Positions 8,846-54,931 of a stretch of 64,000 nt of DNA are shown here, piece after piece. The DNA lies in contig CADBEF010000008.1 in NCBI GenBank assembly GCA_902793555.1, positions 420 through 64,419 of the forward strand, read 5' to 3'. Source of the DNA: an uncultured bacterium (lineage in GTDB: Bacteria; Verrucomicrobiota; Kiritimatiellia; RFP12; UBA3636). Both the position numbers and the translations under genes were made by a program. Below the pieces are notes generated by a model. That model saw nothing but the letters and a program-made list of their open reading frames with translations. It did not search any database and was not told where the DNA came from. How positions within the stretch are numbered: position 1 is the first letter of the stretch; each line of letters begins with the position of its first letter.

Positions 8846-8871
8846 GCGCGGGCGCCCCGGCGTCCGCGCGC
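8846..8871. terminator. Possible bidirectional hairpin between convergent genes
   Basis: gcgcgggcgcc cc ggcgtccgcgc: 11-bp imperfect stem with one mismatch. No clear U-tract. Confidence 0.25.
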
Positions 8872-38411: not shown

Positions 38412-38493
38412 CTAGCCCATCCAGACCATCCCGACCATCCCGACCATCCCGACCATCCCGACTATCCAGACCATCCAGACCATCCCGACCATG
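38412..38493 (+). repeat. Tandem array of nine 9-bp units (consensus GACCATCCC; one 'gactatcca' variant) ending in the ATG of the GH10-like gene
   Basis: cccatccagaccatcccgaccatcccgaccatcccgaccatcccgactatccagaccatccagaccatcccgaccATGccc. Confidence 0.95.
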
Positions 38494-39933: not shown

Positions 39934-39975
39934 ACCAACCCGACCATCAAGACCATCTAGACCATCTAGACCATG
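39934..39975 (+). repeat. Leader repeat (ccgaccatc aagaccatc tagaccatc tagaccATG) ending in the GH2 start codon
   Basis: Same 9-bp family. Contains in-frame TAG codons, so it is not translated from upstream. Confidence 0.9.
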
Positions 39976-41649: not shown

Positions 41650-44600
41650 GGGGCGGGATCGAAGCGGAAGGCGCCCCACAGGCGCGGCTCCACGCCGGCC
41701 TGCGAGGGGCGGTCGCTCATGAGCGAGGTGGCCTTGTTGCTCCAGTAGTCGCGGCGCACCGCCGTGGCGCCGGCGGGGTCGCCGTTCACGCGGCCCACGT
41801 CGGCGCGCGTCTCCGCGGGCGCCTTCTTCCAGCCGAGCACTTCGAAGGGGATCACCGCGCGCACGGTCCAGAGCCCGCCCTTCTCGATCCAGGTCGTCAC
41901 GCGCGGCTCCACCGCAACCGAGGAGGCGGCAATCTTCCCGACCGGCGACTCGAAGACATGGCGCGCGCAGGGCGGCGTGGAGGGGTTGTCGTAGTCGTAC
42001 TTCACGCACACGGCCTTGCCGCCCATCTCGGCGAAGAGCAGGCGGACGTCGCCGCGCGCGGGGCCCTTGCGCGCGGGGTCGGCCTTCTTCGCGGTCTGTA
42101 GCATGAGGTCCCACGCGCCGCCCGTCTCGAAGAGCGTGGCGGGGTCCGTCCCCTTGTTCGCCATCGAGGAGCCGTTCGGGCGGCAGGTGTAGGCGAAGTA
42201 GAGGTTCGCGCCGTCGTGCTGCAGGCGGAAGAGGTCGCCGTTCGGGCCCTTCTCGAGAACGCCCACGTCCCACACGGCCTTCGGCGGACGGCCGTTCGCG
42301 TCGAGCGTCTGGCGCGGCATCGAGCGGATCTGCAGCGTCGGGCGCGTGCCGGCGGCGGCCTCGCGGTCGGCCTTGCGGCGCGCGTCCTCGGCGAGCGTCC
42401 TGGCGGTCACGCGGAAGCGGCCGGGACGGAGGCGGCGCGCCTTCTCGAGGCCGCCGATCTCGATGATGGAGGCGTGGGTCTTGCCGCACACCATCGCGAG
42501 GGCGTCGCGGCCGTCGAACTTCGTGCGCTGGAACTCGCCGAGGAAGTGCTCGTCCTGCATCGAGGTCCTCTTGAGCGTGTCGGAGTCCGGGATCTCGGGC
42601 TGCGTCCACGGCAGGCCGCAGCGCTGGTCCTGCATGAGCTGCGCGAGGAAGATCCCGTCCGCGGTCATGAGGTAGGCGCAGCCGAGGTTGGAGTTGAAGC
42701 AGACGACCTCGCCGACGTCGTCGTTGAGGCGCACGGAGCCCCAGAAGCGCGTCGTTCCGATGAGCTCGCCGAGGCGGCGGCCGCTCTCGGTCGTATCGTG
42801 GCTGTCGTGCAGCGACGGCCAGCGGTTGCGGTAGCGGAAGAGGACCTTCCCGTCGGGCGCGATGGACATGAGCGGCTTGGAGAGCGTGAGGATGTTGCCC
42901 GCTTCGTCGACCAGATGCGAGCTTGCGAAGCGCCCTTGGTGGTGCGCGGCGACGAACGGCGGGTGGAGCGGTTCGCCGAGGTGCCCGTAGACGGGATACC
43001 CCTTGTCGGTGAAGCGCACGGGGGTGAACTTCACGATGCCGTTGCCGTCGCAGCCGAACGCGATCTCGAAGTTCTCGTTCACGCGGTTCACCCAGCCCGT
43101 GCCGAGTCCCGTGACGTGCTCGTCGATCACGCACTCGTCCTCGGTCATCGCGCCGTCGTCGTTGAGGTCGGTCCACGAGAACGAGACCTTCTTCCCCTTG
43201 TATTCGGGCAGGTTGAAGCCGAGGAAGTCGCCGTTGCCCCACGCGGCGACGGCGCGCGCGTGGCCGTCCTCGTAGACGTAGAGGACGTTGCCGCCGTTGC
43301 CCATCACGTTCTGCTGGTCCGTGAACCAGAGCCTCCCGCGGGCACGAAAGGCGTAGGTCGGCGTGCCGCCCCACGGGCCGCACGGGGGCGTGCGCGGACG
43401 GAAGAAGATGCGCGCCGGGCGGTACTTGCCGTCCGGGCCGCGGTGCAGCTCCAGGTAGCCCCAGAACGCGCGGTCGGCGTCGTCCGGGTCGATCGTCCCG
43501 CCGCCGCCGTAGTTCGTGGGCCCGACGACCGACTTCTCGCAGTGCCCGGTGTCGACGTTCCACACGCCGACGCGCTTGGGCTGCTGGCTCTGCTCGCAGA
43601 TCCAGAGGCGGCCGTCCGGGCCGAACTCGATGCCGAACGGGTCCTCGAGCGTGTCCTCGTCCCACGGCCCGACCGGCCGCCGCCCGCCCTTGCCGAGCGT
43701 GCGGAGCGGCTTCGCGTCGGGACCGTAGACGGTCACGACGTGCCGCCCGCAGTCGCCGACCGCGAAGACGCCGTCCTCGCGGATCGCGAGGCCGCCGGGG
43801 TTTTCCGCGGCGTCGCGCAGGACGGTCTCGACCGCCTTCGTGGCGGGGTTCACGCGCACGACGTCCTTGTCGCTCCAGAGCAGGAGCTTCTTGTCCGGGG
43901 TGCGGCGGATCTGGCCGGCCTTCGGGACAGGGATGGTGTCGATCGGCTTGTCCACGACGGCGCCGGGCGCCTCGGAGAAGTCCCAGACCTGGATCTCGTC
44001 GTCCTTCGTGAAGTACGCGCGGCCGTCGATTACGGCGAAGGAGTTGCCCGCGGCCTTCGTGTTCACGTTGGCCGTCGCGTTCGAGCGCGAGTCGACCTTG
44101 CGCACGCCGTTCTTGAAGCCGTAGTAGAAGTCGCCGTCGGACGCGGACGTGAACGGCGTGTTGAACACCCACTGGCGCGTGCCCCAGAGCTTGTTCAGGT
44201 CCTTGTCGCACTTGATGAGCCCGTGCGCGGCCTCGCACATCGCGGTGATGTACATGAACTCGCCGACGCGGACGATGGACTTGGGCGCGAAGTGGTCGGC
44301 CGTCCACCCGCCGGTGCCGGCGGGCGTGTGCCAGGGCGTGGCGCCGTCGGGCAGCGGCGTCGGGTAGAAGCAACCCCGCCACGTCAGCGTGTGCTCGGGG
44401 ACCCAAACCGCCTTGTAGGTGTATTCGCCCTCGGGCGCGCGGGCGCCGTCGTCCGGGCCGGTGAGGTCCCAGTCCACGTACTGCCGCCCCTTTTCGAGCG
44501 GCTCGGGGCTGATCGCGTTGCCGACCACCTCGCCGGCCGCGTTGCGGATCTGGAGCGAGACGTAGCCGCGCTCCGGCACCTCGACCGGGATGTCGATCGC

Positions 44601-44744
44601 GCCGGCGGCGAGCGCCGCGAGCGCGAAGAGGGGGGCGAGGAAGCGGCCCCGCCCGAGCTGCGCGGGGCTGCCGCCCCGCTCCGCCGGCCGGGCGGGGCCG
44701 GGGACTGCGGACGGGTAGGAGCGAGGATGGGTTTTTGAGTTCAT
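41646..44744 (-). CDS. Secreted protein of unknown function (1032 aa), paralog of 54932-58555
   Basis: Internal signal-like 'FLAPLFALAALAAGA' after a 33-aa N-terminal extension. Shared C-terminal region with the 54932 protein ('GANLYF...DLMLQ...' versus 'NLYAMGDTVDFQL...'). Stop overlaps the GH2 stop (CTAG). Confidence 0.7.
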   Translation of the reverse strand: MNSKTHPRSYPSAVPGPARPAERGGSPAQLGRGRFLAPLFALAALAAGAIDIPVEVPERGYVSLQIRNAAGEVVGNAISPEPLEKGRQYVDWDLTGPDDGARAPEGEYTYKAVWVPEHTLTWRGCFYPTPLPDGATPWHTPAGTGGWTADHFAPKSIVRVGEFMYITAMCEAAHGLIKCDKDLNKLWGTRQWVFNTPFTSASDGDFYYGFKNGVRKVDSRSNATANVNTKAAGNSFAVIDGRAYFTKDDEIQVWDFSEAPGAVVDKPIDTIPVPKAGQIRRTPDKKLLLWSDKDVVRVNPATKAVETVLRDAAENPGGLAIREDGVFAVGDCGRHVVTVYGPDAKPLRTLGKGGRRPVGPWDEDTLEDPFGIEFGPDGRLWICEQSQQPKRVGVWNVDTGHCEKSVVGPTNYGGGGTIDPDDADRAFWGYLELHRGPDGKYRPARIFFRPRTPPCGPWGGTPTYAFRARGRLWFTDQQNVMGNGGNVLYVYEDGHARAVAAWGNGDFLGFNLPEYKGKKVSFSWTDLNDDGAMTEDECVIDEHVTGLGTGWVNRVNENFEIAFGCDGNGIVKFTPVRFTDKGYPVYGHLGEPLHPPFVAAHHQGRFASSHLVDEAGNILTLSKPLMSIAPDGKVLFRYRNRWPSLHDSHDTTESGRRLGELIGTTRFWGSVRLNDDVGEVVCFNSNLGCAYLMTADGIFLAQLMQDQRCGLPWTQPEIPDSDTLKRTSMQDEHFLGEFQRTKFDGRDALAMVCGKTHASIIEIGGLEKARRLRPGRFRVTARTLAEDARRKADREAAAGTRPTLQIRSMPRQTLDANGRPPKAVWDVGVLEKGPNGDLFRLQHDGANLYFAYTCRPNGSSMANKGTDPATLFETGGAWDLMLQTAKKADPARKGPARGDVRLLFAEMGGKAVCVKYDYDNPSTPPCARHVFESPVGKIAASSVAVEPRVTTWIEKGGLWTVRAVIPFEVLGWKKAPAETRADVGRVNGDPAGATAVRRDYWSNKATSLMSDRPSQAGVEPRLWGAFRFDPAP
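44652..44700 (+). repeat. Copy 1 of the ~45-bp palindromic element (cgagctgcgcggggc-tgcc-gccccgctccgccggccgggcgggg)
   Basis: Inverted repeat GCGGGGC/GCCCCGC. Lies inside the first ~95 nt of the minus-strand gene 44744. Confidence 0.8.
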
Positions 44745-44793
44745 CGTCGGATGCGTTTTGTTGCAGTGATTTCAAGCGCCCGGCGCGGCGGCG

Positions 44794-47553
44794 TCAGCCG
44801 CGCAGTTCGGGCCCGACCTGCCGCGGCGTCGGCGGCGGGCCCTCGAGGTACTCGATCTCGCACTCGTTCGCGCCGTCGTCGCGGACCGTGCAGCCTTCGC
44901 CGAGCCACGCGCGGCGGAAGATGAAGTGTCGGCAACCCCTGAGGTCGAAGTCCGTGTCCGTCCACGTGCCGCCCTCGAACATCGCGCCGTCGGCGAGCCT
45001 CACCGCGAGCCGCCCGCCGGGCGGCGGCGCGAACTTCGCTCCCTGGTCGGCCAGGAAGACCTGGCCGGGCCCGAGCTCGATCGCGCCGCGCAGCACCACG
45101 GTCTTCTCGCCCTCGTTCACGAAGACGGCGCCGTGCTCCGCGAGCGAGGCGCGGATCTCCGCCTCGGCCTCGGGGCGTCCCTCCGGCACGACCGGGTACT
45201 CGCACCCGCGGCCGTAGGAGAGCTCCACGTCGCGCAGCGCGTCGGCGACGCGCCGCTCGCGCTCGTGGCGCGCCGCGGTTTCCGCGTCGGGACTGCCCTT
45301 CGCGAGCGAGACCACGCGCCGCAGCTGCGCCATCTGCACGGGGTTGCAGTACCCGAGTTCGTGCACGAAGCCCACGTCGAAGCACACGCTCGCGCCGAGC
45401 GGCAGCACGCGCCGGAGCCAGTCGACCCAGACGTCGTCCGTGTGCCGCACGTCGGTCCAGCCCCACATGCCGCCCAGATAGGTGAGCGAGAACCACTGGC
45501 GGCCGAGCGCCTCGCGGCCGTCGCACGGCAGGCGCATCGGGTTCGTGGACTCGCCGGCGGTGAAGTCGCAGCCGGCCCACACGTCGTGGCGGGCCTCGCC
45601 GGGGCAGCGGAATTCATGGAAGAGCGTGCCGAGCTCGCGGCCCTCCTTGCGCTCCATGCCGAGCACCCAGCGGAAGCCGTGGTCGTAGTCGACGATCCGC
45701 TTCGCGAAGGCGCAGACCGCGTCCGGGTTGCCGCGACGCGCGGCGGCCCGGATCGCGAGTGTCTCGCGGTCGCCGGCGAAGCCGGGGCCGCCGGCGCCGT
45801 CGAACCACCAGGCGTGGACGTCGCGCCCGTAGCGCTCGCTCCATTCGCCGATCACCTCGCACCAGTTCGCGAGCCCCTCGGGCGTGTCGGTGCAGTCCGA
45901 GCGGCCGTCGAGGGAAGGGACGTACCCCATTCTCTCGCAGTCCTCCGGCGCGCGGGCGGGGGCGCGGCACGGCAGGTAGAGGCAGAACTTGATCCCCGTG
46001 CCGCGCAGCGCCTCGATCATCTCGCGAGGAAGGTCGCGTCCGTTGCAGGCCGCCGTGGCGATCCCGCGCTGCCGCCGCGTGATGCGCTCGTAGGTCGCGT
46101 TCGGGGCGATGTAGGTGCCGGCGTTCTGGCCGAGCGTGAGGAAGAAGTAGTCCACGCCGGCCGCGACGAGGTCGCGCTTCATCCGCTCCACGTCGAACTT
46201 GCGCGCCTCGCGGCTCGCGATGCCCGGCCAGTAGTGGACGAACGCGCCGACCTTGCCGGCCATCCAGTCGGTCTCCGGCGGCGGCGCGGGACGGTGCGCG
46301 CGCCGCGCCGCGCGGTTCTCCTCGAGGTAGGCGCCCGCGAGGGCGCCCCAGAAGAACTCGGAGACGTTCGGCGTGTCGTAGTCGTAGAAGAGGAGCGTCT
46401 TCTCGATCTCCTCCTCGTAGCACGGGTCGCCCGTCGCAGCGCAGATCGCCGCGGCGCAGAGCGGGTTCGTCATCGTGTGCCGCTCGAACCACTTGCGCAC
46501 GCCGAGCAGCTCCGTCCGCGGCGAGGCCGCGAACGAGACCGAGACGTCCTGGTCCGTGTGCGGATGCCACGGATAGCCCTCGCGCCAGTTGGCGTAGCGG
46601 AACTCGGCCTTTTTATTGTCGTATCCCGCGCGGTCGGCCATGAAGGGCGCGGTGCGCGCGGCGAAGTCGCGGAAGCCCGCGCGGTAGACCGCTCTCCACT
46701 CGGGGTCCTCCTCGAGGGCGATGAGATCCCGGAGCGCCATCGCGACGGAAACGTAGATCCAGTGTCCGTCCGTGCGCCCGGCCTTGTCCTTCTCGCAGTC
46801 GGCGAGCCCCTTCGCCATCCGGTCGCGCACGGCGGCGCGCTCGGAGCGGTAGAGCTCGAGCCAATGCGCGTCGCCCGTCATTTCGTGGAGGGCGCGCAGG
46901 GTGAAGAGGAACCGCGCAACCTCGTAGTACGGCAGGACGACGTCCCTGAGCCCGCCGCGGTTCTGCCCCTTGAAGAGGCCGTCGCACGGGCACCACCAGC
47001 CGTTGGCCTCGAGCGCGCGGGCGATCTCGGCGCAGCGCGCGGCGATCTTCGCCTGGAGCGCGGGCTCGGCGAATGGCGCGCGCCAGTAGCTCCAGAGGCC
47101 GATCAGCCACGGCGTGGTCTGGTCGTTGGAGCCGCAGGGCCAGTGCGAGCGGCCGTCCTCGAGCACGCAGCGCGCGATGAAGCCGGGCACGTCCGAGACC
47201 TCGGAGAGCTTGAGCAGGCCCTCGGCGAGGCGCTTCGCGAGCGCCGCGTCGCCGCGCTGCACCACGGCGGGCATCCACTGGCCGGTGAACATCGCGCCGT
47301 TCTCGACCGGCGTCCACCAGCCCATCGCGTTGGGAAACGCGCGCGCCGCCTCCTCGGGGGTCGGCATCGGGCCGACATAGTCGAGCAGCAGCCCGGGGCC
47401 GTAGACGAACTCTCGCGCGAGCCGCGCGTGGGCCTGGTCCATCGCCGAAGCGAGGGAGGCGTGACCGCCCGGGCCGAGCGGGGCACTTGCCCCGCTCGCC
47501 GGGCGGTCAGGACCGGGGGTGGAAGATGCTTTGGCCGGAGTTTTGGTTTTCAT
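44794..47553 (-). CDS. Putative two-domain glycoside hydrolase-like protein (six-hairpin-like N-region + TIM-barrel-like C-region), 919 aa
   Basis: Long protein-like ORF; family assignment uncertain ('AWWFDGAGG', 'DYFFLTLGQNAGTY'). In-frame alternative start at 47442 (MDQAHARL). Confidence 0.6.
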   Translation of the reverse strand: MKTKTPAKASSTPGPDRPASGASAPLGPGGHASLASAMDQAHARLAREFVYGPGLLLDYVGPMPTPEEAARAFPNAMGWWTPVENGAMFTGQWMPAVVQRGDAALAKRLAEGLLKLSEVSDVPGFIARCVLEDGRSHWPCGSNDQTTPWLIGLWSYWRAPFAEPALQAKIAARCAEIARALEANGWWCPCDGLFKGQNRGGLRDVVLPYYEVARFLFTLRALHEMTGDAHWLELYRSERAAVRDRMAKGLADCEKDKAGRTDGHWIYVSVAMALRDLIALEEDPEWRAVYRAGFRDFAARTAPFMADRAGYDNKKAEFRYANWREGYPWHPHTDQDVSVSFAASPRTELLGVRKWFERHTMTNPLCAAAICAATGDPCYEEEIEKTLLFYDYDTPNVSEFFWGALAGAYLEENRAARRAHRPAPPPETDWMAGKVGAFVHYWPGIASREARKFDVERMKRDLVAAGVDYFFLTLGQNAGTYIAPNATYERITRRQRGIATAACNGRDLPREMIEALRGTGIKFCLYLPCRAPARAPEDCERMGYVPSLDGRSDCTDTPEGLANWCEVIGEWSERYGRDVHAWWFDGAGGPGFAGDRETLAIRAAARRGNPDAVCAFAKRIVDYDHGFRWVLGMERKEGRELGTLFHEFRCPGEARHDVWAGCDFTAGESTNPMRLPCDGREALGRQWFSLTYLGGMWGWTDVRHTDDVWVDWLRRVLPLGASVCFDVGFVHELGYCNPVQMAQLRRVVSLAKGSPDAETAARHERERRVADALRDVELSYGRGCEYPVVPEGRPEAEAEIRASLAEHGAVFVNEGEKTVVLRGAIELGPGQVFLADQGAKFAPPPGGRLAVRLADGAMFEGGTWTDTDFDLRGCRHFIFRRAWLGEGCTVRDDGANECEIEYLEGPPPTPRQVGPELRG
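47476..47514 (+). repeat. Copy 2 of the palindromic element: perfect 9-bp inverted repeat gagcggggc-acttg-ccccgctc followed by gccgggcggtcaggacc
   Basis: Read directly from the sequence. Within the first 80 nt of minus-strand gene 47553. Confidence 0.9.
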
Positions 47554-47623
47554 CGCAGGGTTTTCTGAGACGGTGATCCTACGTGCCCGGTAAGCGGGAG
47601 TGTGGCCCCGCGCAACTCGGGCG

Positions 47624-48850
47624 CTACCACGCCGCCGGGATCTTCAGCGTCTCGCCGCCCTTCATCGCGGAAAGGTGCGCGTAGACGCCCGCAAGCGTGG
47701 TGTCGAGCGCGGTCCTGAGGTCCACGCAGACCTTGTGCCCCGGCACGAGGATGCCGCGCAGGAAGTCGTCGGTGAGGTAGCTGTGCGAGCCGCCGTGGCC
47801 GCCGGCGTCCACGCCGGGCGGAAGCGGCGGCTTGGCGAGGTCCATCTCCGCGACCTCGGCGTCGAACCAGCCGCGGTAGCCGCCCTTCTCGGGCACGTAG
47901 CAGCCCTTGTTGCCGAAGATGCGGCCGATCTCGCCGCCGAAGGCCGGGACGTCCCACGCCACGAGCATGCGCGCGGTGGAGCCGTCCTCGCAGCGCATCA
48001 TGGCGAACTCGCTGCCGTAGGGGTTGGCATAGCGGTTGTTCTCCGGCTTGTAGTGGGTCTTGAGCGACGGCACCCCGGAGCACGCGACCTCGACGAAGCG
48101 CTTGTGCGTGACGCAGGTGTAGAAGGCGTTGGAGTGGGTCGGGTAGTACTGCGGCGGGCAGCCCTCGCGCCACTTGCCGAAGCTGCCGCACATCACCGAG
48201 TCGAGGTCGTTGCCGTCCGGGTGGTAGTATTCACCCTCGGTGTAGACGACGTCGCCGAGCATGCCGGCCTCGTAGAGCTTGCGCATGGCGTAGCCCTCGG
48301 GGCGGAACGCGGTGGTCTCGTTCATCATGTAGAGCCTCCCGCTCGCCTTCACGGCGTCCACGAGCTTCGGCACCATCTCGAGCTGGTCCGCGCCGAAGAA
48401 GGCCGGCACGGCGCTCGCGACGTGCAGGCCGTGCTCGAGGGCCATGATCGCGAGGCGCACGTGGCTCGGCGCGTCGGTCGCGATGTAGACCGCCTCGACC
48501 CGGTCCTCCTCCGCGTGCTTCAGCAGCTCCTCGAACGTCGGGTAGCGGTTCTTCGCGCGGGTGCGCTCCTGCAGCTTGAGGCAAAGGTCCGGATCGAGGT
48601 CGGAGACCGCGACCACCTCGGCGTTGGGATGCTGCTGGTAGCCGAACTGCGAGCCGAAGGAGCAGACCCCTTCGCCCACGATGGCGACGCGCACGCGACG
48701 TTCGGAGAACGGCTGCCAGACCGCGCTGGCGTTCGCGCCGGCGTCGGTTTCCTCGAAGCCCTGGATCCGCGCGAGCTGCGCGGGGCTCGCGCCCCGCTCC
48801 GCCGCGCTATCAGGACCATGATCGGGATGGGTTTCGGGATTCGTTTTCAT
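47624..48850 (-). CDS. Gfo/Idh/MocA-family NAD(P)-dependent oxidoreductase
   Basis: Rossmann N-terminus 'VRVAIVGEGVCSFGSQFGYQQHPNAEVVAVSD'. True start may lie downstream of the annotated ATG, because the first ~50 codons contain the palindromic element. Confidence 0.75.
   Translation of the reverse strand: MKTNPETHPDHGPDSAAERGASPAQLARIQGFEETDAGANASAVWQPFSERRVRVAIVGEGVCSFGSQFGYQQHPNAEVVAVSDLDPDLCLKLQERTRAKNRYPTFEELLKHAEEDRVEAVYIATDAPSHVRLAIMALEHGLHVASAVPAFFGADQLEMVPKLVDAVKASGRLYMMNETTAFRPEGYAMRKLYEAGMLGDVVYTEGEYYHPDGNDLDSVMCGSFGKWREGCPPQYYPTHSNAFYTCVTHKRFVEVACSGVPSLKTHYKPENNRYANPYGSEFAMMRCEDGSTARMLVAWDVPAFGGEIGRIFGNKGCYVPEKGGYRGWFDAEVAEMDLAKPPLPPGVDAGGHGGSHSYLTDDFLRGILVPGHKVCVDLRTALDTTLAGVYAHLSAMKGGETLKIPAAW
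48773..48817 (+). repeat. Copy 3 of the palindromic element (gagctgcgcggggc-tcgc-gccccgctccgccgcgctatcaggacc)
   Basis: Near-identical to copy 1 over ~35 nt. Within the first 80 nt of minus-strand gene 48850. Confidence 0.9.
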
Positions 48851-48892
48851 GGTGGAGGTATCGATGGTTGGGATGTCCTTGGGAAGACGCCG

Positions 48893-48901
48893 TAGATTCT
48901 A
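48893..48901 (-). promoter_or_regulatory. -10-like TGGTAGAAT (minus strand), ~45 nt upstream of ATG 48850
   Basis: Reverse complement of attctacca, in an AT-rich island at 48890-48990. Confidence 0.35.
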
Positions 48902-49000
48902 CCATCGCCACGCATACGGCGCAAGGGATAATTCAGCCATAATACGCAGAATCTTTCGCTCGAAAAACGAATGATCTTGAGCGAGGCGCCCGCCCCGATC

Positions 49001-49140
49001 GGCGGGATTCGGGTTTCGGGAGACGGGTTTCGCGGCGGGTTTCGGCGCGGCGCCGTCGCGCCGCGGGCGGGTTTCGCGAAACCCGAAACCCGAGTCCCGC
49101 GGCGAATCCCGAAATCCGAATCCCGAATCCCGAAATTGCA
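49001..49140. repeat. Imperfect long inverted repeat built from GGGTTTC / GGGATTC heptamers, centred on the 16-bp palindrome gggtttcgcgaaaccc. The right arm is (CGAATCC)-like x5
   Basis: gggattcgggtttcggg...gggtttcgcgaaacccgaaaccc...gaatcccgaaatccgaatcccgaatcccgaaa. Confidence 0.85.
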
Positions 49141-49171
49141 GGCGGGGTGCGGCGACTGCCGCACCCCGCCA
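49141..49171 (-). terminator. Rho-independent terminator candidate for the giant minus-strand gene
   Basis: Perfect 13-bp stem ggcggggtgcggc / gccgcaccccgcc with a 4-nt loop. Starts ~19 nt after the stop (49190-49192). On the transcript it is followed by the U-rich stretch 'ugcaauuucgggauucgg'. Confidence 0.45.
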
Positions 49172-49189
49172 CGACGCACGATGGCGCGC

Positions 49190-52100
49190 CTACTTCACGA
49201 TCAGCACGGTCGCCTGCGGCGGCGGGCGGTACCAGATCTGCGTGATCTGCGCGGCGGTCTTGCCGGCGGCCTCGATTGCCGCGGCGTCGGCGTAGGCGTT
49301 GCCGTCCGCGTCCTTGAAGAAGAAGCCGCAGTAGTTCGGGCGAACGTCCTCGAAGCGGACGTTCGCCGCGTTCACGCCGCCCGGCGACTGCAAGAGCTGG
49401 ATGCCGTACTTGCCCGAGACCGAGGCCAGGCCGGGGCTCTCCTTCGGCACGCGGAGCGTCATCTTCGCGTCGTTCGCGTTGTTCGGGAACTTGTTGGAGC
49501 CGCTCGTGAACCGCACTGGCACCGCCGTGTAGCCGCCGACCGGGACCACGAACTCGAACACGTTCGTGCTCGTCGCGTATTTGAGCTGCAGCCACTGCGG
49601 CGTGAACACCGAACCCGCGCCGACGAGCCGGACCATCGTTCCATTGACGGAACTCCAGGTGTCGGGCTCGAGCTTGCCGGCGGTCACGGTGCCGCCGTCG
49701 ATTTCGAGGACGGGCGGTGGCGCGGCGGAGCCGCCGGAAAGGCCGCCCGCATTGAGCGTTGCGCCGTCCTCGACGCGGACCTTCGTGCCCGGGTAGCTCA
49801 ACTTAAAGCCGTTGAACTGCGCCGTCGTCCCCCCTGTCAGGGTGATGGTGAAGTTTTCGCCGTTCTCGTCCGCAGCGGACGCGCCAACACCTTGGATGTT
49901 GTCGAGGTACACGTTGCAATCGTCGAAGACAAGGCGCGTGCCGGCCCCCGTGTTGGCGAGGGCGTACGCCCGGAACTTGGCCGCGGCGACAGTCTTGTCC
50001 TCGGAGATGAAGACGAGATTGGTGTTCATTCCACCGACGTCCAGGGCCGAAACCCACCACCATGTCGCGTTGCCATAGCGTGTGGTCCCCTGCGTCTCCG
50101 GGATCGTCACGACGATCGGGTCGTCGCCCGCGGCCGTGGCGAAGAGCGCCGTGGAGCCGAAGACAGGATAGCCCTCGTAGCCGGTTGGGGCAAGGCTGCC
50201 CGCCGCCGTGAGCTGCCAGTTCGCGGGAACGTTCCACACGCCGGCGCTGCCGCCGATCCACGTGTAGGTGGAGTTGTCCTGGAGCTCGAAGGCCTTGTTG
50301 TAGAAGACGTTGCTCCCCGCGACATTCACGTTCGGCCAGTTGGTGGTCGCGCTTTCCGCCGTGCCGTTCACGAGCATGAGCGAGTAGTAGACCTTCGTGC
50401 CCCACGGCGAATCGGGGAAGGTGGCCGTGAGCGAATACGTTCCCGGCTCCGAGACAACCACGGAATCGGCGATGGTGTTCTCGCTGTTCCAGTTGCTGCC
50501 CGTCATCAGGTAGAGGGTCGTCGTGCCGACGCCGAGGCTCGTGACCGGTACCGTCGCGATGAGAGACTTGCCGTCGGGCGTGAAGGTCGCCCTGGCGGTG
50601 TTCCACGCGGACGCGCCGGCGGCGGTCGTGAAGGTCGCGACGGCGGAGTCGACGCCGACGGGCGTCGCGGCGTTGTTCGTCGCGGTGGCGTAGAAGGTGT
50701 AGGCCGTCTCGGGAGCGAGCCCGGTGACCGCGACGGCGAGGTTCGTGCGGCCGGTCGCCGTGCCGGCCGGGATCGTCCGCGTCTCGCCGCCGCCGGAGAG
50801 GACGAACCACACCTGCGCCGAGGTCGCGTCCGCGCCGGGCGCGTTGAGGACCGCGGAGAGGGTCGCGCTGTCGCCGGAGATGGCGGATGCGTCGGGATCG
50901 CCGAGGAAGGCGAATGCCGCCGCGATCGAACCTTCGCCGGCCCAGTCGAGCGAGACCGTGGCGGACCAGGTGACCGCGTCGCCTTTCTGCGTGTAGAAGC
51001 GCACGAAGCGCGTGTCCGCCGCGATGGCGACGAGGTAGTCGTTCGTCACCGCCGTCGCCGGGAGCGACGACGCGACGAGGCTGCCGCCCTCCCAGTCCGC
51101 CGGGTCGTTCCCGCCGTCCGTCGCGCCGTAGACGTAGCGCAGCACGCTCGACTCGCCGGGGAAGGCCTCGCCCAGCGCGACCTTCGCGGAGAGGAGCGTG
51201 CCGTCGCGCACCGCCGAGAGGACGGACACCGCGCGCGTGGGCGCCTCCGTGATAAAGAGCGAGCCGTCGCCCGGATCGACCGCCTCCTGCCACTCCGCGT
51301 CGGCCGCCGCCGGCGCGGACGCGCCGCTTGCCAGCGCGATGTAGCGCATCTTGGGGTAAAGAATCGATGTCGTCGGCTCCGCCCCCGCGCCGCCGCTGTT
51401 GTTCCAGCCCGCGAAGACGACGCGGTAATAGCCGGTCTCGGCGATGGCGAAGGGGCCGACGGCCTTCCAGCCGCCGTAGCCGCCGAACTGCGAGGCCGTG
51501 CGTTTCGCCTCCCAGTTTGCGTCGCCGTTGTCGACCCACACGTAGCCCGCGTCGTCGGCCGAGGCGCCGAACCAGTAGTCCTTGCCGCCCTCCATGTACA
51601 TGTAGCCCGCGTAGCCGAAGCCGACGTTGTTGCCCCATGTGAAGGACGTTCCGTCGACCGACGTCCAGATGTCGTGGTTGTTTCCGGAGGACCGCATCGC
51701 GAGCGGACCGAGCGTGACGACGCCGGACGCGGCAATGTCCCAGCTTGCCGCGGCGTCGGCGGGAAGGTTTGCGTCGTTGACCGCAATTGCCTGGTAGAGG
51801 CCCGGCGAGCCGGCGCCGGCATCGGAGAGCGTCGAGAACGCGGCGAGAGCGGAATCCACGCCAGCGCCAAGATTGTTCGTGGCCGTCAGGTAGGCGGTCC
51901 AGTCCGCGCCCGGCTGTAGGCCGGAAACAGTCGCCTCGATGACCTTCGGCTCCGTCGCCGGAGCAAGCGGGTAGGCGCGCGTCTGGCCGAAGCCGGTGAC
52001 GACAACCCAGAGGTTCGCGGACGTCGCATTGTCGCCAATCCCCTTGAGACGCGCCGAAATGGTCGCGCCCGTCGCCGAGACGGACGAAACGGACGGCGTT

Positions 52101-54550
52101 CCGAACTCGAACGACATGACGGCAGCGGCTTCCTCCACGTCGCCGAAGGAGACGTAGTTCGCCCTCGCCATCGTCGCGTATTCCGCCGCCATCCAATCGT
52201 CCGAGGAGGTCACGCGGCGGATGCGGATTTCGTCGAGGCCTCCGGTGAGGGGGTTGACGGTGCCGCTGCCGCCCATGCCGCCGAGGGTCAGGGCCTCGGT
52301 CGGCGTGACGACCGCGTTCAGCGTCTTCTCGTTTTTCTTGTCGCCGTCGTCGTAGAACTTCACCGCGGTTCCCAACCAGGTGCCCGCAAAGTGCTTCCAC
52401 GCGGTGTTCGGCCCGGTCGCGATGTCCGTCTGGAACTGGCTCTGGTTGGATGACCCGACCGTGATCTTGGTGTAGCTGTTCTGGAGCGTGATTTCGTAGC
52501 CGGCCGGCTTGCTCCAGTCGGACATGCACGAGACCATGCGCGTGAAGCCCGCGTTCCCCGTGACGCGCGCCCAGAAGGAGACGGTGAGCGCCGGGCCGTC
52601 GCCGAGCGTCGTCCACGCGGGATCGGGGGCGTAGCGCAGGTCGGACGAGCCGTCGAGCCAGAGCGTCTTGCCGACCGGGCCGGGATAACCGGCATTGCCG
52701 TCGTAGGTCGGCGTGCCGCGCATCGCGGTGGGGACGAGGTTCGTCACGGACTCCGCGTTGCTGCCGCTGAAGTGCCAGACGGCGTTGTATCCGGCGCGCG
52801 TCCAGACCTCGCGCGCGGCGGGCGAATCCTCGACGCTGCCCGCGTCGTTCGCCCAGTGCATCGTGATCGTCGTCGAAGAGGAGAAGGACGGCACCGAGAC
52901 CCAGATGAGCGATTCGCCAGCCGTGTTCCACGTGTCGGCCTCGAAGGGAAGGACGGCATCGTATCCGTCCGTGAACCAGAGGTGCGCGGCAGTCGGGCAG
53001 TCCTCGTAGAGGAAGCCCTCGGGCGCGTCATTGGCAAGGCGCACGAGGACGGGGAAGTTCTCAAGGGGCGTCGCAGGCGCGGACGGGAAGGAAAGCTCGC
53101 ACTCGTAGATGCCTGTTCCGGTCGGAATCCGCTTCGTCTTGAACGACGCCGTGGCGGAGTCCGCGCCGGCCGAGAGGTTGTTCGTCGCGGTGAACCAGCA
53201 GGTGTAGGTCGTCTGCTCGGCAAGGTTCTCGAGCGTGGCCGAGAGCGCCGAGGGTTCGACGCTCTTCGTGCCGAGGGCGATGCGGTTCGTCGTGGCGCCG
53301 CCGTCCGTATAGACAAGCCAGACGTCGGCCGAGGTCGCGCCTTCGCCGAGCGTGCGCAGCTCGCCCGTGACGAGCGCATTCGTCGGCGTCACGTCCGAGA
53401 CGGCGACCGCGCCGAAGCGTAGCACCTCGACGCCGGTCTCCACCTCGCCGAAGGAGACATAGTTCGCCGTCGTCACGGTCTTGTATTCCTCGGCGATCCA
53501 GTCGGCGGTCGAGGCGACGTTGCGGATGCGGATTTCGTCGAGATTGCCGCCGAAGGTCTGCGTATGGTCTGTAAAGGTGCCGAGGCCGATGCCGTTCACA
53601 AGCGTCTTTGACACATTCCAGCCGCTCTTTCCGAGGGCGCGTGACGCTCCACCGACATAGCCGACCGGAACGGAAGCGTAAACGCCGGCGACATGCCGCC
53701 AGTCATTGGCTGACAGACCATCGGAGTAGTTGAACTCCTTGTGATCGCCGCCGTTCATGACATAGCTCCGTGTTGTGGAGGCAGTCATGTTACCCAGAAC
53801 ATTGTAGTCGCTACTAAAGGCGACTGCGCGGTCGTCACCCGTCGAGTAGCATGCCTCGAAGAAGGAGATCGTGAAGCCGTTGGCGCCGATGGTCGTTGCG
53901 GACGTGCTGGCAGAGGGGACGATGAAGCCGCCGACGATGCGGTTTCCGCCCGATGTATTGTCGTTACGAATTGTCATGCCGCAGCCGGTGGGTGCGGCAG
54001 ATGCGGCCTGCCACGCCGTGGCGTCGGTCGTCTTCACCGGATATGCATCGCTCTCACTCCCCTTGTAGGCGTTCCAGCCGCTCGCGGAGGCGTCGGGGGT
54101 GTAGTGGAGGCCGTTGTCTTCGAGAATCTCGTTCATGTGCCAGACGCCGACGTAGTTCGCGAGCGACCACACCTGCGACGACGCGGGCTGGCCCGCCGGC
54201 GCGCCGCTGGCGTCCCAGTGCATCGTGATTTTCGCGGAGGATGAGAGCGAGGGGACGGAGACCCAGACGAGCGACGTGCCTTCATCGTCCCACGTATCGA
54301 CGTCGCAGGGAATCGCGTCGTCGTTCGCGTCCGTGAACCAGAGGCAGCCGCCAGTGGGACAGTCCGTGTAGGAGAAGCCCGTGGGGGCGCCCTCGGCGAG
54401 GCGCACGAGGACGGGGAAGTTTGCGAGCGCGGTCGATGGCGCGGACGGGAACGAGAGTTCGCACGTGAGATCGGCGAGCGCGGGCGCGGCGAGAAGCGCG
54501 AGCGCCGCGGCGAGCGCATGGGGAAAGAGGGGACGGGATTCGGATTTCAT
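49190..54550 (-). CDS. Giant secreted protein (1786 aa): two tandem DUF2341/LamG/FN3 units, a PA14-like module and a beta-helix-like C-region
   Basis: Signal peptide 'MKSESRPLFPHALAAALALLAAPALA'. DUF2341-like 'FPVLVRLAEGAPTGFSYTDC...LVWVSVPSLSS' present twice. Ends '...QATVLIVK'. RBS GGAAAGGA upstream. Confidence 0.85.
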   Translation of the reverse strand: MKSESRPLFPHALAAALALLAAPALADLTCELSFPSAPSTALANFPVLVRLAEGAPTGFSYTDCPTGGCLWFTDANDDAIPCDVDTWDDEGTSLVWVSVPSLSSSAKITMHWDASGAPAGQPASSQVWSLANYVGVWHMNEILEDNGLHYTPDASASGWNAYKGSESDAYPVKTTDATAWQAASAAPTGCGMTIRNDNTSGGNRIVGGFIVPSASTSATTIGANGFTISFFEACYSTGDDRAVAFSSDYNVLGNMTASTTRSYVMNGGDHKEFNYSDGLSANDWRHVAGVYASVPVGYVGGASRALGKSGWNVSKTLVNGIGLGTFTDHTQTFGGNLDEIRIRNVASTADWIAEEYKTVTTANYVSFGEVETGVEVLRFGAVAVSDVTPTNALVTGELRTLGEGATSADVWLVYTDGGATTNRIALGTKSVEPSALSATLENLAEQTTYTCWFTATNNLSAGADSATASFKTKRIPTGTGIYECELSFPSAPATPLENFPVLVRLANDAPEGFLYEDCPTAAHLWFTDGYDAVLPFEADTWNTAGESLIWVSVPSFSSSTTITMHWANDAGSVEDSPAAREVWTRAGYNAVWHFSGSNAESVTNLVPTAMRGTPTYDGNAGYPGPVGKTLWLDGSSDLRYAPDPAWTTLGDGPALTVSFWARVTGNAGFTRMVSCMSDWSKPAGYEITLQNSYTKITVGSSNQSQFQTDIATGPNTAWKHFAGTWLGTAVKFYDDGDKKNEKTLNAVVTPTEALTLGGMGGSGTVNPLTGGLDEIRIRRVTSSDDWMAAEYATMARANYVSFGDVEEAAAVMSFEFGTPSVSSVSATGATISARLKGIGDNATSANLWVVVTGFGQTRAYPLAPATEPKVIEATVSGLQPGADWTAYLTATNNLGAGVDSALAAFSTLSDAGAGSPGLYQAIAVNDANLPADAAASWDIAASGVVTLGPLAMRSSGNNHDIWTSVDGTSFTWGNNVGFGYAGYMYMEGGKDYWFGASADDAGYVWVDNGDANWEAKRTASQFGGYGGWKAVGPFAIAETGYYRVVFAGWNNSGGAGAEPTTSILYPKMRYIALASGASAPAAADAEWQEAVDPGDGSLFITEAPTRAVSVLSAVRDGTLLSAKVALGEAFPGESSVLRYVYGATDGGNDPADWEGGSLVASSLPATAVTNDYLVAIAADTRFVRFYTQKGDAVTWSATVSLDWAGEGSIAAAFAFLGDPDASAISGDSATLSAVLNAPGADATSAQVWFVLSGGGETRTIPAGTATGRTNLAVAVTGLAPETAYTFYATATNNAATPVGVDSAVATFTTAAGASAWNTARATFTPDGKSLIATVPVTSLGVGTTTLYLMTGSNWNSENTIADSVVVSEPGTYSLTATFPDSPWGTKVYYSLMLVNGTAESATTNWPNVNVAGSNVFYNKAFELQDNSTYTWIGGSAGVWNVPANWQLTAAGSLAPTGYEGYPVFGSTALFATAAGDDPIVVTIPETQGTTRYGNATWWWVSALDVGGMNTNLVFISEDKTVAAAKFRAYALANTGAGTRLVFDDCNVYLDNIQGVGASAADENGENFTITLTGGTTAQFNGFKLSYPGTKVRVEDGATLNAGGLSGGSAAPPPVLEIDGGTVTAGKLEPDTWSSVNGTMVRLVGAGSVFTPQWLQLKYATSTNVFEFVVPVGGYTAVPVRFTSGSNKFPNNANDAKMTLRVPKESPGLASVSGKYGIQLLQSPGGVNAANVRFEDVRPNYCGFFFKDADGNAYADAAAIEAAGKTAAQITQIWYRPPPQATVLIVK

Positions 54551-54610
54551 GGCGGATTCCTTTCCGTGGGCCCGGGGTCGTCAGGGTACACTCCGGGTCC
54601 GGCAATGGAA

Positions 54611-54639
54611 ATTTTAGCACACGCGGGCGCGCCGCGCAA
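54611..54639 (-). promoter_or_regulatory. Sigma70-like promoter (minus strand) TTGCGC-17-TGTGCTAAAAT (extended -10) in an AT-rich island
   Basis: Reverse complement of gcgcaa...attttagcaca. ~60-nt leader with GGAAAGGA RBS before ATG 54550. Confidence 0.4.
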
Positions 54640-54706
54640 GGGTGGATTTGCGCAGATTACGCACAAATTTTCGCCTAAAAAACGAATACGACCAAACTGC
54701 CCCCCC

Positions 54707-54846
54707 CTGCCCCGCTCACCGGCCGCTCAGGACCAGAAAGCGGAATAGCCACGCAGTGCGAAGAAGCATACGGGACCTTTCCTCACAGCGGTCCTGAGTG
54801 CCCGGCGAGCGGGGAGGCGGGGAGGGGGCCCCGCGGAGCTCGGGCA
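54707..54846. repeat. Inverted pair of palindromic-element arms (54707-54732 plus orientation; 54789-54846 minus orientation) flanking a ~55-bp spacer. MITE-like or long-hairpin structure
   Basis: gccccgctcaccggccgctcaggacc ... ggtcctgagtgcccggcgagcggggaggcggggagggggccccgcggagctcg. A C8 homopolymer sits at 54698-54705. Confidence 0.8.
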
Positions 54847-54918
54847 CATTCGCTTTCCGGGCGAAGGAATCTGCGCATTCCGCCCGCTTCTCCCTTGACC
54901 CGCCGCGCACCGCTCGGG

Positions 54919-54924
54919 TAGAAT
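54919..54924 (+). promoter_or_regulatory. -10 TAGAAT, 7 nt upstream of ATG 54932 (leaderless-type)
   Basis: gggTAGAATgggccccATGaaaacc. Confidence 0.45.
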
Positions 54925-54931
54925 GGGCCCC

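What the first reader, a model, noticed from the sequence alone, without database searches (positions are those of the whole stretch)
44652..54846. Family of ~45-bp palindromic elements (GAGCGGGGC-N4/5-GCCCCGCTC...TCAGGACC): seven full or partial copies within 10 kb, three inside gene 5' ends
A GC-rich element with a perfect or near-perfect 7-9-bp inverted repeat, followed by CCGGGCG and TCAGGACC, recurs at 44652-44700, 47476-47514, 48773-48817, 54707-54732 and (inverted) 54789-54846. The first three lie antisense within the first 100 nt of three consecutive minus-strand genes, where they encode similar N-terminal extensions (ERG(G/A)SPAQL...). The last two form an inverted pair in the divergent promoter region. 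The symmetry fits a dimeric transcription-factor operator, possibly for the nearby XylR/AraC regulators. It also fits a REP/MITE-like structured repeat.
Basis: seen in the sequence. Interest (0 to 1): 0.8.

Follow-up and report, generated by a model that had tools for sequence, protein, structure and literature searches.

The report
REP-like palindromic repeats, some translated
The repeats are real and belong to a REP/REPIN-type family of small hairpin-forming mobile DNA. Close relatives carry its dedicated transposase (RAYT) at this same locus, and several copies sit in frame inside genes, so this is a new example of a known kind of element and not a regulator binding site.

Summary
A profile built from 23 full copies finds six significant copies in the 64-kb window, all between 44.6 and 54.9 kb. 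Two further decayed fragments were found by eye.

Read towards the hairpin, each unit is an 8-nt tag (GGTCCTGA) followed by a roughly 42-nt imperfect palindrome. The outer stem covaries: 5 of 7 pairs show compensatory changes and 98.8% of cells are paired.

Copies form head-to-head inverted doublets and tandem arrays. They lie at 5' ends, at 3' ends and inside genes.

In three closely related Kiritimatiellae assemblies (genes 94–97% identical at the DNA level), a 322-aa HUH/Y1 tyrosine transposase of the RAYT type sits between the orthologues of two window genes. Identical doublets flank it on both sides. The window lacks this gene and keeps only a decayed copy at that position.

More distant RAYT homologues (77% and 73% identity) are flanked by correspondingly diverged repeats. 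One doublet is a clean +126-nt in-frame insertion in a GH42-like gene and is absent from homologues 92% identical.

In the window, three copies are embedded in gene 5' ends. For the Gfo/Idh/MocA gene, the substitution pattern argues that the copy is translated. The repeat-coded stretch stands where homologues have Sec or Tat signal peptides.

The operator reading is not supported. The REP reading is.

The parts
44645..44705 (-). REP copy inside the 5' coding region of g1 (41646-44744, secreted 1032-aa protein). The tag is degenerate (GTCCCCGG). It encodes ...PAERGGSPAQLGR just before the signal-peptide h-region.
   Evidence: nhmmer E 3e-5; ssDNA hairpin -32 kcal/mol, z -3.6. There is no ATG/GTG/TTG between the copy and the h-region, read directly from the sequence. 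The copy is conserved in L002.
44794..44815 (+). Decayed 3' half of a REP that supplies the last residues (GPELRG) and the stop codon of g2. It faces the g1 copy across the 49-bp intergenic gap.
   Evidence: The window, P0001 and P0003 end in VGPELRG*, whereas the REP-free homologue P0002 ends in IFEIRPL. In L010 an intact REP at this place extends g2 by about 60 aa.
47463..47514 (-). REP copy in the 5' end of the g2 ORF (44794-47553). It has an almost perfect long hairpin.
   Evidence: E 1.7e-9; -29.3 kcal/mol, z -7.0. It is absent from the 97%-identical orthologue in L002, where a GH36 gene abuts MDQAH.
47575..47624 (+). Degenerate REP immediately after the g3 stop codon. It is the head-to-head partner of the g2 copy. 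The 60-bp gap between the tags (47515-47574) contains the ATG of g2 at 47553.
   Evidence: I6; E 3.9e-6; profile coordinates give 62 bp. An intact copy sits at the orthologous place in L012 (14+).
48767..48817 (-). REP copy inside the 5' coding region of g3 (47624-48850, Gfo/Idh/MocA), codons 12-28.
   Evidence: E 6.9e-10. It is conserved in L006, L012, L033 and L024. Codons 31-52 downstream change almost only at third positions. No in-frame start codon lies between the ATG and codon 52.
48973..49005 (-). Decayed REP with the tag lost, at the position where relatives carry REP doublets flanking the RAYT gene.
   Evidence: alignment with L012, L006, L016. tblastn with the RAYT finds nothing in the window.
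54697..54734 (-). Truncated REP (tag plus 5' arm, then a G-run) upstream of the promoter of the 1786-aa LamG/DUF2341 gene.
   Evidence: E 4.4e-4. It does not fold (z +0.8).
54790..54847 (+). REP with an enlarged loop, upstream of the promoter of the 1210-aa gene. It forms a head-to-head doublet with the previous copy (55 bp between the tags).
   Evidence: (E 5.9e-13).
41646..48850 (-). Three same-strand genes g1, g2 and g3 whose 5' ends (and, for g2, the 3' end) are built partly from REP sequence.

Best explanation
The repeats are a REP (repetitive extragenic palindrome) family organised as REPIN/BIME-like head-to-head doublets. They belong to a REP-RAYT system of a rumen/gut Kiritimatiellae lineage.

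Each unit is a non-palindromic 8-nt tag (GGTCCTGA) followed by an imperfect palindrome of about 42 nt that forms a stable hairpin in single-stranded DNA.

By analogy with E. coli TnpA-REP and the IS200/IS605 transposases, a HUH/Y1 nuclease (RAYT) probably binds the hairpin, reads the tag, and cuts and rejoins single strands. This would spread copies, mostly as doublets. That mechanism is inferred, not shown here.

In relatives, the RAYT gene sits inside this very gene cluster and is flanked by doublets. The window has lost it, so these copies depend on a RAYT elsewhere in the genome, if one exists, or they are fossils.

Five of the six reading frames of the unit are open. Copies that landed in frame have therefore survived as coding sequence:
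- as the N-terminal stretches of g1, g2 and g3, standing where homologues of g2 and g3 have Sec or Tat signal peptides;
- as the C-terminal residues and stop codon of g2.

The copies also coincide with synteny breakpoints between strains.
For: Structure:
- 23 full copies align to one consensus.
- The outer helix is 98.8% paired, with compensatory changes in 5 of 7 pairs (26 cells). Slid controls give 29-49% pairing.
- The RNAalifold consensus agrees.
- ssDNA folds are -17 to -32 kcal/mol, with z from -1.5 down to -7 for intact window copies.

Organisation:
- 17 head-to-head doublets have 50-146 bp between the tags, plus an 83-bp-period tandem array in L010.

Transposase:
- L012:1659-2627(-) matches Pfam Y1_Tnp at 24.4 bits against a cutoff of 23.
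- It matches NCBIfam 'REP-associated tyrosine transposase' with E 3e-11.
- The HUH histidines and the Tyr of YIxNNP are invariant in 43 homologues.
- The AlphaFold model (pLDDT 92) matches ISDra2 and IS608 TnpA, and the E. coli RAYT-REP complex 4ER8 (E 1e-6, rmsd 3.0 A).
- Identical doublets flank the gene on both sides in L012. The gene is also present in L033, L024 and L006/L016.

Co-variation of repeat and transposase:
- RAYT homologues at 77% and 73% identity are flanked by diverged repeats (tag CGTCCTGA; a short form in L043).

Mobility or turnover:
- A +126-nt in-frame doublet in the L013 GH42-like gene is absent from homologues 92% identical.
- The g2 copy is absent from L002.
- Copy number differs at orthologous junctions.

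Taxonomic restriction:
- A scan of 185,579 species genomes finds multi-copy hits only in two Kiritimatiellae/'Verrucomicrobia' MAGs.

Literature:
- REPs with a terminal tag, dimers, and intragenic and N-terminal copies (highest in Opitutus terrae) are described in PMC3733652.
- TnpA-Y1 subclass 2.4 has WQ and YIxNNP motifs, and REPs inserted into the tnpA gene itself (PMC6006769).
- Low repeat counts (12-14) for RAYT groups 1 and 4 are reported in PMC5581495.
Against: - No RAYT gene is present in the window. Whether this genome has one elsewhere is unknown.
- The tag is neither GTAG nor CGTC, the two described tag superfamilies.
- The NCBIfam RAYT score (43 bits) is below that model's equivalog cutoff (80). 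phmmer against PDB sequences is only marginal (E 0.8).
- The copy number per genome is unknown. All copies seen cluster in a few loci, unlike the dispersed hundreds of classical REPs. MAG fragmentation and the exact-match scans make the counts lower bounds.
- No RAYT-REP binding or cleavage has been shown for this family.
Confidence: 0.9

Rival explanations
1. The element is the operator of a dimeric transcription factor (for example the XylR/AraC-type regulators at 8871-9785 and 58564-59727) that co-regulates the glycan-degradation genes.
For: - The element is palindromic.
- All window copies point toward a downstream gene start.
- Two copies sit in a divergent promoter region.
- AraC-family genes are nearby.
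- In L009, copies lie upstream of an AraC-family gene.
Against: - Stem positions covary and are not conserved as a contact motif would be.
- Positions range from upstream of the -35 to 60-90 nt inside coding regions.
- Copies lie between convergent 3' ends (L008, L026), inside a GH42-like gene, and around a transposase gene.
- Tandem arrays occur.
- The element is present or absent between strains that keep the same genes.
- A different conserved module (ATTCGyTTTy..GCGAA..) sits next to the three promoters and is a better operator candidate.
Confidence: 0.03
2. The elements act mainly at the RNA level, as intercistronic or 5'-proximal hairpins that stabilise upstream mRNA or tune translation within the g3-g2-g1 transcript. 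Their spread would be secondary.
For: - The hairpins are stable.
- Copies sit between same-strand genes, right after stop codons (47575-47624 after g3; L012 14+).
- The REP literature reports mRNA-stabilising roles and frequent transcription (PMC3733652).
Against: - There is no Rfam match.
- Copies occur in both orientations relative to transcription, and upstream of promoters where they would not be transcribed with the gene.
- The asymmetric tag is conserved although it is not part of the hairpin. That fits protein recognition of DNA.
- This reading is compatible with the best explanation as a side effect rather than a true alternative.
Confidence: 0.05
3. The inverted pairs are recombination sites of a site-specific recombinase (an inverton or cassette-shuffling system) that flips or swaps promoter-bearing spacers.
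For: - Head-to-head inverted pairs lie 50-146 bp apart.
- The spacers are AT-richer and contain start codons.
- Gene order differs between strains, with the repeats at the junctions.
Against: - The spacer of the divergent pair has the same orientation in the window, L010 and L034.
- Each arm is itself a covarying hairpin, which invertase sites are not.
- No serine or tyrosine recombinase is linked. The linked gene is a HUH/Y1 enzyme.
- Single copies and tandem same-orientation arrays are common.
Confidence: 0.02
4. The signal is at the protein level: a conserved N-terminal peptide (ERGxSPAQL) shared by the three proteins.
For: g1 and g3 encode AERG(G/A)SPAQL.
Against: - g2 reads the hairpin in another frame.
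- Two or more copies are non-coding.
- Orthologues lack the peptide.
- Substitutions inside the REP-coded part of g3 are mostly non-synonymous (5 against 2 versus L024). Downstream they are mostly synonymous.
Confidence: 0.01

Closest known systems
REP/BIME and REPIN elements with their RAYT (TnpA-REP), e.g. E. coli REP-yafM and Pseudomonas fluorescens REPINs (PMC3116915, PMC3337134, PMC3479197, PMC2817692)
   Same: - A short imperfect palindrome preceded by a conserved non-palindromic tag.
- Inverted doublets of two sub-types: GTGCC and GCGGC stems alternate, like the Y and Z REPs.
- Tandem arrays.
- A Y1/HUH transposase gene flanked by the repeats (REPtron arrangement).
- Repeat and transposase diverge together.
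   Different: - The tag is GGTCCTGA (8 nt), not GTAG or CGTC.
- The unit is longer (about 50 nt).
- The copy number seen is low and the copies are clustered.
- The RAYT is about 325 aa, with a conserved C-terminal domain of about 170 aa whose model resembles DprA.
- The window itself has no RAYT.
TnpA-Y1 subclass 2.4 / RAYT group 4 (PMC6006769, PMC5581495)
   Same: - The motifs WQ and YIxNNP.
- Long REPs.
- REP copies inserted into the tnpA gene itself (the L043 RAYT starts with an in-frame REP doublet).
- Low genome-wide frequency of the flanking repeats (about 14).
   Different: - Our HUH motif is DHVH, against NH[IFV]H.
- The median length of subclass 2.4 is 194 aa, against about 325 aa here.
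- Assignment to the subclass was not tested phylogenetically.
Intragenic REPs and Rickettsia palindromic elements (RPE) (PMC3733652; PMC10969869)
   Same: - Palindromic repeats inserted in frame in protein-coding genes, including N termini and surface loops, without destroying the ORF.
- Here: the +42-aa loop insertion in the L013 GH42-like gene, and the N termini of g1 to g3.
   Different: - RPEs are 100-150 bp and have no known transposase.
- Here the unit is about 50 nt (doublet about 130-250 nt), with a linked RAYT.
- Here the N-terminal copies stand where homologues have signal peptides.
IS200/IS605 subterminal hairpins (IS608, ISDra2)
   Same: - The transposase fold matches.
- The logic of a hairpin plus an adjacent short sequence read by the enzyme.
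- No target-site duplication was seen at the one clean insertion.
   Different: The repeats are not the ends of an IS that carries its own transposase as a multicopy unit. The transposase gene appears once per locus and the repeats are dispersed on their own.

Membership tests
REP/REPIN-RAYT system | Short imperfect palindrome that forms a hairpin as a single strand | tested here: met
   14 pairs, 97.8% paired, compensatory changes in 5 pairs; ssDNA folds of -17 to -32 kcal/mol.
REP/REPIN-RAYT system | Conserved non-palindromic tag at one end of the hairpin (GTAG or CGTC in the described superfamilies) | tested here: inconclusive
   A conserved tag is present (GGTCCTGA: four positions invariant, two nearly invariant and two conserved in fewer than 90% of 23 copies; CGTCCTGA in L041 and L043). 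It is neither GTAG nor CGTC.
REP/REPIN-RAYT system | Inverted doublets (REPIN/BIME) and clusters | tested here: met
   17 head-to-head doublets with 50-146 bp between tags. Alternating stem sub-types and an 83-bp tandem array.
REP/REPIN-RAYT system | A RAYT gene flanked by the same repeats | tested here: met
   Met in relatives: L012 doublets 1437-/1608+ and 2699-/2870+ around ORF 1659-2627(-); also L033, L024, L006/L016, L041 and L043. Not met in the window itself, which has no RAYT.
REP/REPIN-RAYT system | The transposase has the HUH motif, a catalytic Tyr and the IS200-like fold | tested here: met
   Pfam Y1_Tnp above cutoff. NCBIfam REP_Tyr_transpos E 3e-11, below the equivalog cutoff. H77, H79 and Y140 invariant. 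Foldseek hits to 2XM3 and 4ER8 at E 1e-6.
REP/REPIN-RAYT system | High copy number dispersed over the genome, mostly extragenic | tested here: inconclusive
   Only fragments are available. There are 6 copies in 10 kb of the window and none in the other 54 kb. There are 15 and 7 exact-pattern hits in the two MAGs. A sizeable share is genic. Low counts are reported for RAYT groups 1 and 4 (PMC5581495).
REP/REPIN-RAYT system | The RAYT binds and cleaves its REP as single-stranded DNA | not testable with these tools
   This needs biochemistry with P0105-type protein and tag-plus-hairpin oligonucleotides.
Transcription-factor operator | Fixed position relative to promoters of a regulon, with conservation of contact bases and no compensatory change | tested here: not met
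   Positions vary from upstream of the -35 to inside ORFs, at 3' ends and in mid-gene. Stems covary.
MITE derived from a DDE-type IS | Terminal inverted repeats plus a direct target-site duplication | tested here: not met
   The doublets provide inverted termini, but no direct duplication flanks the clean insertion in L013 when compared with L039.
Integron attC sites | R''/L''-L'/R' cores (GTTRRRY) at the 3' end of each cassette, with a linked integron integrase | tested here: not met
   No such cores are present in the consensus. The linked enzyme is a Y1 HUH transposase.
Described RNA families (Rfam 15) | A match at the gathering threshold | tested here: not met
   No match in the whole window.

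The most novel reading that the evidence does not exclude
In this Kiritimatiellae lineage the REP system may do more than litter intergenic DNA.

First, it may systematically rewrite protein termini. REP-coded stretches, with start codons lying in doublet spacers, would have replaced the Sec/Tat signal peptides of glycan-degrading enzymes (g2, g3). That could shift these enzymes from the periplasm to the cytoplasm. REPs also supply C-terminal tails and loop insertions.

Second, the enzyme driving this is an unusual RAYT fused to a DprA-like single-strand-DNA-binding domain.

A further untested possibility concerns the variable 5 nt next to the tag. They might pair with the flanking target sequence, as the guide does in IS608. 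At the one clean insertion, the distal arm GTGGCCGAGC is already present in the empty allele.
Probability: 0.2. Interest if true: 0.55.

Novelty: new member of a known kind. Interest (0 to 1): 0.35.

Why it matters
- It settles what a conspicuous repeat in a glycan-utilisation cluster is. This prevents a false regulon or operator annotation.
- It flags three gene starts whose N termini are repeat-derived, so gene callers and localisation predictors will be misled there.
- It adds a REP-RAYT pair from Kiritimatiellae, with a non-GTAG tag and a two-domain RAYT. No Kiritimatiellae or Verrucomicrobia entry was found in the TnpA-Y1 survey PMC6006769.
- The set of closely related strains shows copies present, absent, decayed or multiplied at the same junctions. 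That is useful material for studying REP turnover and exaptation into proteins.
- The phenomenon as such (REPs, RAYTs, intragenic REPs) is already described.

Tried and rejected
- Rfam gathering scan of the window: nothing.
- GAGCGGGG alone is not enriched, and its four other occurrences are not copies.
- The exact window protein g3 was traced only to a 1.9-kb Logan contig, which gave no context.
- The genome and metagenome pattern scans returned singletons in Actinomycetota, Acidobacteria, Gemmatimonadota and other groups. These lack the 3' arm and are chance matches.
- phmmer of the RAYT against PDB sequences was only marginal (E 0.8). The fold comparison was needed.
- A generic 'tag plus any 7-bp stem' regex was too noisy in 70% GC DNA to count diverged families.
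- Inverton idea: the spacer orientation is the same in three assemblies.
- Guide/target idea: only one clean empty site was available. The same stem sub-types occur at many loci with different flanks, so it stays unresolved.
- The L016 'empty' site for the divergent pair turned out to hold a decayed copy, so it gave no insertion boundaries.
- No paper in the library mentions both DprA and RAYT.

Full report
**1. What is in the sequence**

The five listed sites carry the motif. Read toward the neighbouring gene, every copy has the same polarity: GGTCCTGA, four variable bases, CCGGYG(G)AGCGGGG, a short loop, then GCCCCGC(GNAG)CTCGGnnn.

- The composite pattern with up to three mismatches occurs 3 times against 0.03 expected.
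- The 8-mer GGTCCTGA occurs 6 times against 1.66 expected.
- The GC-rich core GAGCGGGG alone is at background. Its other four occurrences are unrelated.
- An nhmmer profile made from 23 full copies finds six window hits with E<1e-3. All lie between 44.6 and 54.9 kb, with none in the remaining 54 kb.

The six hits are 44645-44705(-), 47463-47514(-), 47575-47624(+), 48767-48817(-), 54697-54734(-) and 54790-54847(+). Decayed fragments lie at 48973-49005(-) and about 44794-44815(+). Rfam has no match.

**2. Gene context**

The region holds three same-strand genes:
- g1: 41646-44744, 1032 aa, with an FlgD-Ig-like match below Pfam's cutoff.
- g2: 44794-47553, 919 aa, with no Pfam domain.
- g3: 47624-48850, Gfo/Idh/MocA, whose Pfam domain starts at residue 53.

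Next come a 1786-aa LamG/DUF2341 protein (49190-54550, minus strand) and, divergently, a 1210-aa protein.

g1 and g3 read the hairpin as AERGxSPAQL. A 1-nt difference puts g2 in another frame there (ASGASAPLG). The two copies in the divergent intergenic region are non-coding. The conservation is therefore at the DNA level.

**3. Copies elsewhere, and anatomy**

An exact-pattern scan of one genome per species (185,579 species) gave multi-copy hits in only two MAGs:
- Kiritimatiellae RGIG1497 from goat abomasum, with 7 hits.
- 'Verrucomicrobia' SRR873600_bin.10, with 15 hits, 12 of them on one 17-kb contig.

Singletons in other phyla lack the 3' arm. The JGI metagenome scan added a few contigs from what appears to be the same or a closely related lineage.

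Twenty-three full copies align to GGTCCTGA-GYGSCCG-GCGAGCGGGG-loop-GGCCCCGCGGAGCTCGGSCRC. The outer 7-bp helix is paired in 98.8% of cells. Five of its seven pairs show changes on both sides. Examples are GTGCC/GGCAC, GCGGC/GCCGC, GCGCC/GGCGC, CCGCC/GGCGG, GTTCG/CGAAC, CTTCG/CGAAG and GTGGC/GCCAC. Sliding the partner by 1-3 columns drops pairing to 29-49%. RNAalifold finds the same helix.

As single-stranded DNA, the intact window copies fold at -17 to -32 kcal/mol. The truncated copy at 54697-54734 does not fold.

Copies typically occur as head-to-head inverted doublets. Seventeen doublets have 50-146 bp between the tags. The two arms often belong to different stem sub-types. Tandem arrays also occur, for example an 83-bp period in L010. 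In the window, 47463-47514(-)/47575-47624(+) and 54697-54734(-)/54790-54847(+) are such doublets.

**4. The linked transposase**

In the CAMOEO contig (L012), two identical doublets bracket an ORF. These are 1437-/1608+ and 2699-/2870+, each with the same 146-bp spacer.

- From its internal ATG (L012:1659-2627, minus strand, 322 aa), the ORF matches Pfam Y1_Tnp at 24.4 bits against a cutoff of 23.
- It matches NCBIfam NF047646 'REP-associated tyrosine transposase' with E 3e-11 and 43 bits. This is below that model's equivalog cutoff of 80.
- The same gene is found in L033 (97%), L006/L016 (81-84%) and L024 (70%). It is not in the window.
- More than 160 homologous clusters of about 325 aa exist. 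The four that carry a source name come from Kiritimatiellae MAGs or are called 'REP element-mobilizing transposase RayT'.
- In 43 of the homologues, the HUH histidines (H77, H79) and the tyrosine of YIxNNP (Y140) are invariant.
- An AlphaFold model (pLDDT 92) matches ISDra2 and IS608 TnpA. It also matches the E. coli RAYT bound to a REP hairpin (4ER8, E 1.2e-6, rmsd 3.0 A).
- In the same fold search, a second set of hits, presumably to the conserved C-terminal half, is to DprA and ShosA (E 1e-5 to 1e-3).

RAYT homologues at 77% (L041) and 73% (L043) identity are again flanked by repeats. There the tag is CGTCCTGA. In L043 the hairpin is a short form, GTGCCCGGCGCAGCTCGGGCAC. Repeat and enzyme therefore diverge together.

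In the relatives, the RAYT lies between the orthologues of g3 and the LamG gene. At that place the window has only a decayed copy, followed by an unrelated 130-bp palindrome.

**5. Turnover and coding copies**

Genes in L002, L006, L010 and L012 are 94-98% identical to the window at the DNA level (87% for the LamG gene in L012). The junctions nevertheless differ:
- The g2 copy is missing in L002, where a GH36 gene overlaps the g2 start.
- The g2-g1 junction has three copies in L010 against one in the window.
- Gene order differs, with repeats at the breakpoints.

In L013, a doublet lies in frame inside a GH42-like gene. It adds 126 nt, or 42 aa, in a loop (AEL[RGPAARSPATQDQ...GPEFAASGGGGPAK]LANYKVLV). 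Homologues 92% identical have AEPRLDRYKVLV. A 74%-identical homologue carries short-form copies at the same site, and more copies elsewhere in the gene.

Only one of the six reading frames of the unit contains a stop (GG TCC TGA), as read directly from the consensus. In-frame survival is therefore easy.

**6. The three gene 5' ends in the window**

*g2.* Four orthologues at 80-97% identity lack the 37-aa extension. P0003 and P0004 start at MDQA/MEQA. P0001 has an unrelated 13 residues. P0002 has a Sec signal peptide. The DNA upstream of P0004 also encodes a signal peptide.

*g3.* The closest REP-free homologues (L003, L004) carry Tat-type signal peptides (MISRRSFIGAG...). Homology to the window protein begins at QGFEE, directly after the REP. 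Between the window and four relatives, codons 31-52 differ at 12 synonymous and 2 non-synonymous codons, with 13 of 15 changes at third positions. The REP-coded codons 1-30 differ at 3 synonymous and 8 non-synonymous codons. No in-frame ATG/GTG/TTG lies between the ATG at 48850 and codon 52. I therefore infer that the REP in g3 is translated.

*g1.* No start codon lies between the REP and the hydrophobic signal-peptide core, so the same inference holds.

*g2 again.* Translation could start at 47553 or at M38. Three genomes have different doublet spacers, each with an in-frame ATGAAA, which favours the upstream start. This is not shown.

The last residues and the stop codon of g2 (GPELRG*) are also REP-derived.

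**7. Comparison with what is known**

The anatomy matches the REP/BIME/REPIN-RAYT paradigm (PMC2817692, PMC3116915, PMC3337134, PMC3479197). The shared features are the tag plus hairpin, doublets of alternating sub-types, and a Y1 transposase gene flanked by the repeats.

- Di Nocera et al. (PMC3733652) already describe intragenic REPs and many at ORF N termini. The highest intragenic count is in Opitutus terrae, a verrucomicrobium. They equate some Rickettsia RPEs with REPs.
- Quentin et al. (PMC6006769) list subclass 2.4 with WQ and YIxNNP motifs and REP insertions in the tnpA gene. This resembles the L043 RAYT, whose ORF begins with a REP doublet.
- Bertels et al. (PMC5581495) report low repeat counts for RAYT groups 1 and 4.

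The differences here are:
- the 8-nt tag, which is neither GTAG nor CGTC;
- the clustering around the (former) RAYT locus;
- the two-domain RAYT;
- the N-terminal copies standing where homologues have signal peptides.

I found no paper that mentions DprA together with RAYT.

**8. Verdict**

Of the two proposed interpretations, the REP-like one is right and the operator one is not. The finding is a new family within a known kind of element. The mechanism (RAYT acting on single-stranded hairpins) is inferred from homology and arrangement and has not been demonstrated.

Noticed in passing
window 48947-48972(-), 54662-54687(-), 54848-54873(+): A 26-nt module, ATTCGyTTTy-nn-rGCGAArrwwTsTG, contains the inverted repeat TTCG..CGAA. 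It occurs exactly three times (0.01 expected). Each copy lies directly next to a REP or REP remnant, and 20-35 bp upstream of a sigma-70-like promoter of g3, the LamG gene or the 1210-aa gene (TTGCGC/TTGACC, 17 bp, TAGAAT). It is a better operator candidate for the local AraC/XylR regulators than the REP.
   Followed up: partly
window 54895-54934: The -10 hexamer TAGAAT of the 1210-aa gene overlaps the first ATG of the ORF (54923). The likely start, ATG 54932 (MKTLPF...), lies about 7 nt downstream of the -10, which suggests a leaderless or near-leaderless mRNA.
   Followed up: no
window 49003-49132: A 130-bp imperfect palindrome built of GGGTTTCG/CGAAACCC-type 7-mers (arms 43 nt, 79% complementary). 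It occupies the place where relatives have the REP doublets and the RAYT gene, between the LamG gene stop and the g3 promoter.
   Followed up: partly
window 38417-38492, 39917-39974, 40635-40675: 9-bp tandem repeats (CCATCCCGA and CCATCTAGA; they would encode TIPTIQ-like runs). They lie just upstream of, or at the start of, the GH10 gene (38491-39933) and the GH2-like gene (39973-41649), and once inside the latter. Similar repeats lie next to REP copies in L009 and L027.
   Followed up: no
L012:1659-2627(-) and homologues P0105-P0224: The RAYT of this lineage is about 325 aa. The conserved C-terminal domain of about 170 aa is confidently modelled, and the fold search also gave hits to DprA and ShosA (Rossmann-like single-strand-DNA-binding fold; E 1e-5 to 1e-3). 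No paper in the library mentions DprA together with RAYT.
   Followed up: partly
L010 5053-5230 (g2 3' end) and L040 2232-3038: In the CAMOEO MAG, two REPs extend the C terminus of g2 by about 60 aa. In L040, several short-form REPs lie inside the GH42-like ORF, which is about 100 aa longer than REP-free homologues.
   Followed up: partly
window 41646-41649; L002 2263-2266: There are 4-bp gene overlaps: convergent GH2-like/g1 ends in the window, and an ATGA overlap of the GH36 gene with g2 in L002. Gene order around g1 to g3 differs between assemblies that are 94-98% identical, with REPs at the junctions.
   Followed up: partly
window 50575-54464: The 1786-aa LamG/DUF2341 gene contains internal direct repeats with a period of about 1.3 kb (for example 52852-53102 against 54214-54464, 75%). 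These are presumably repeated domains.
   Followed up: no
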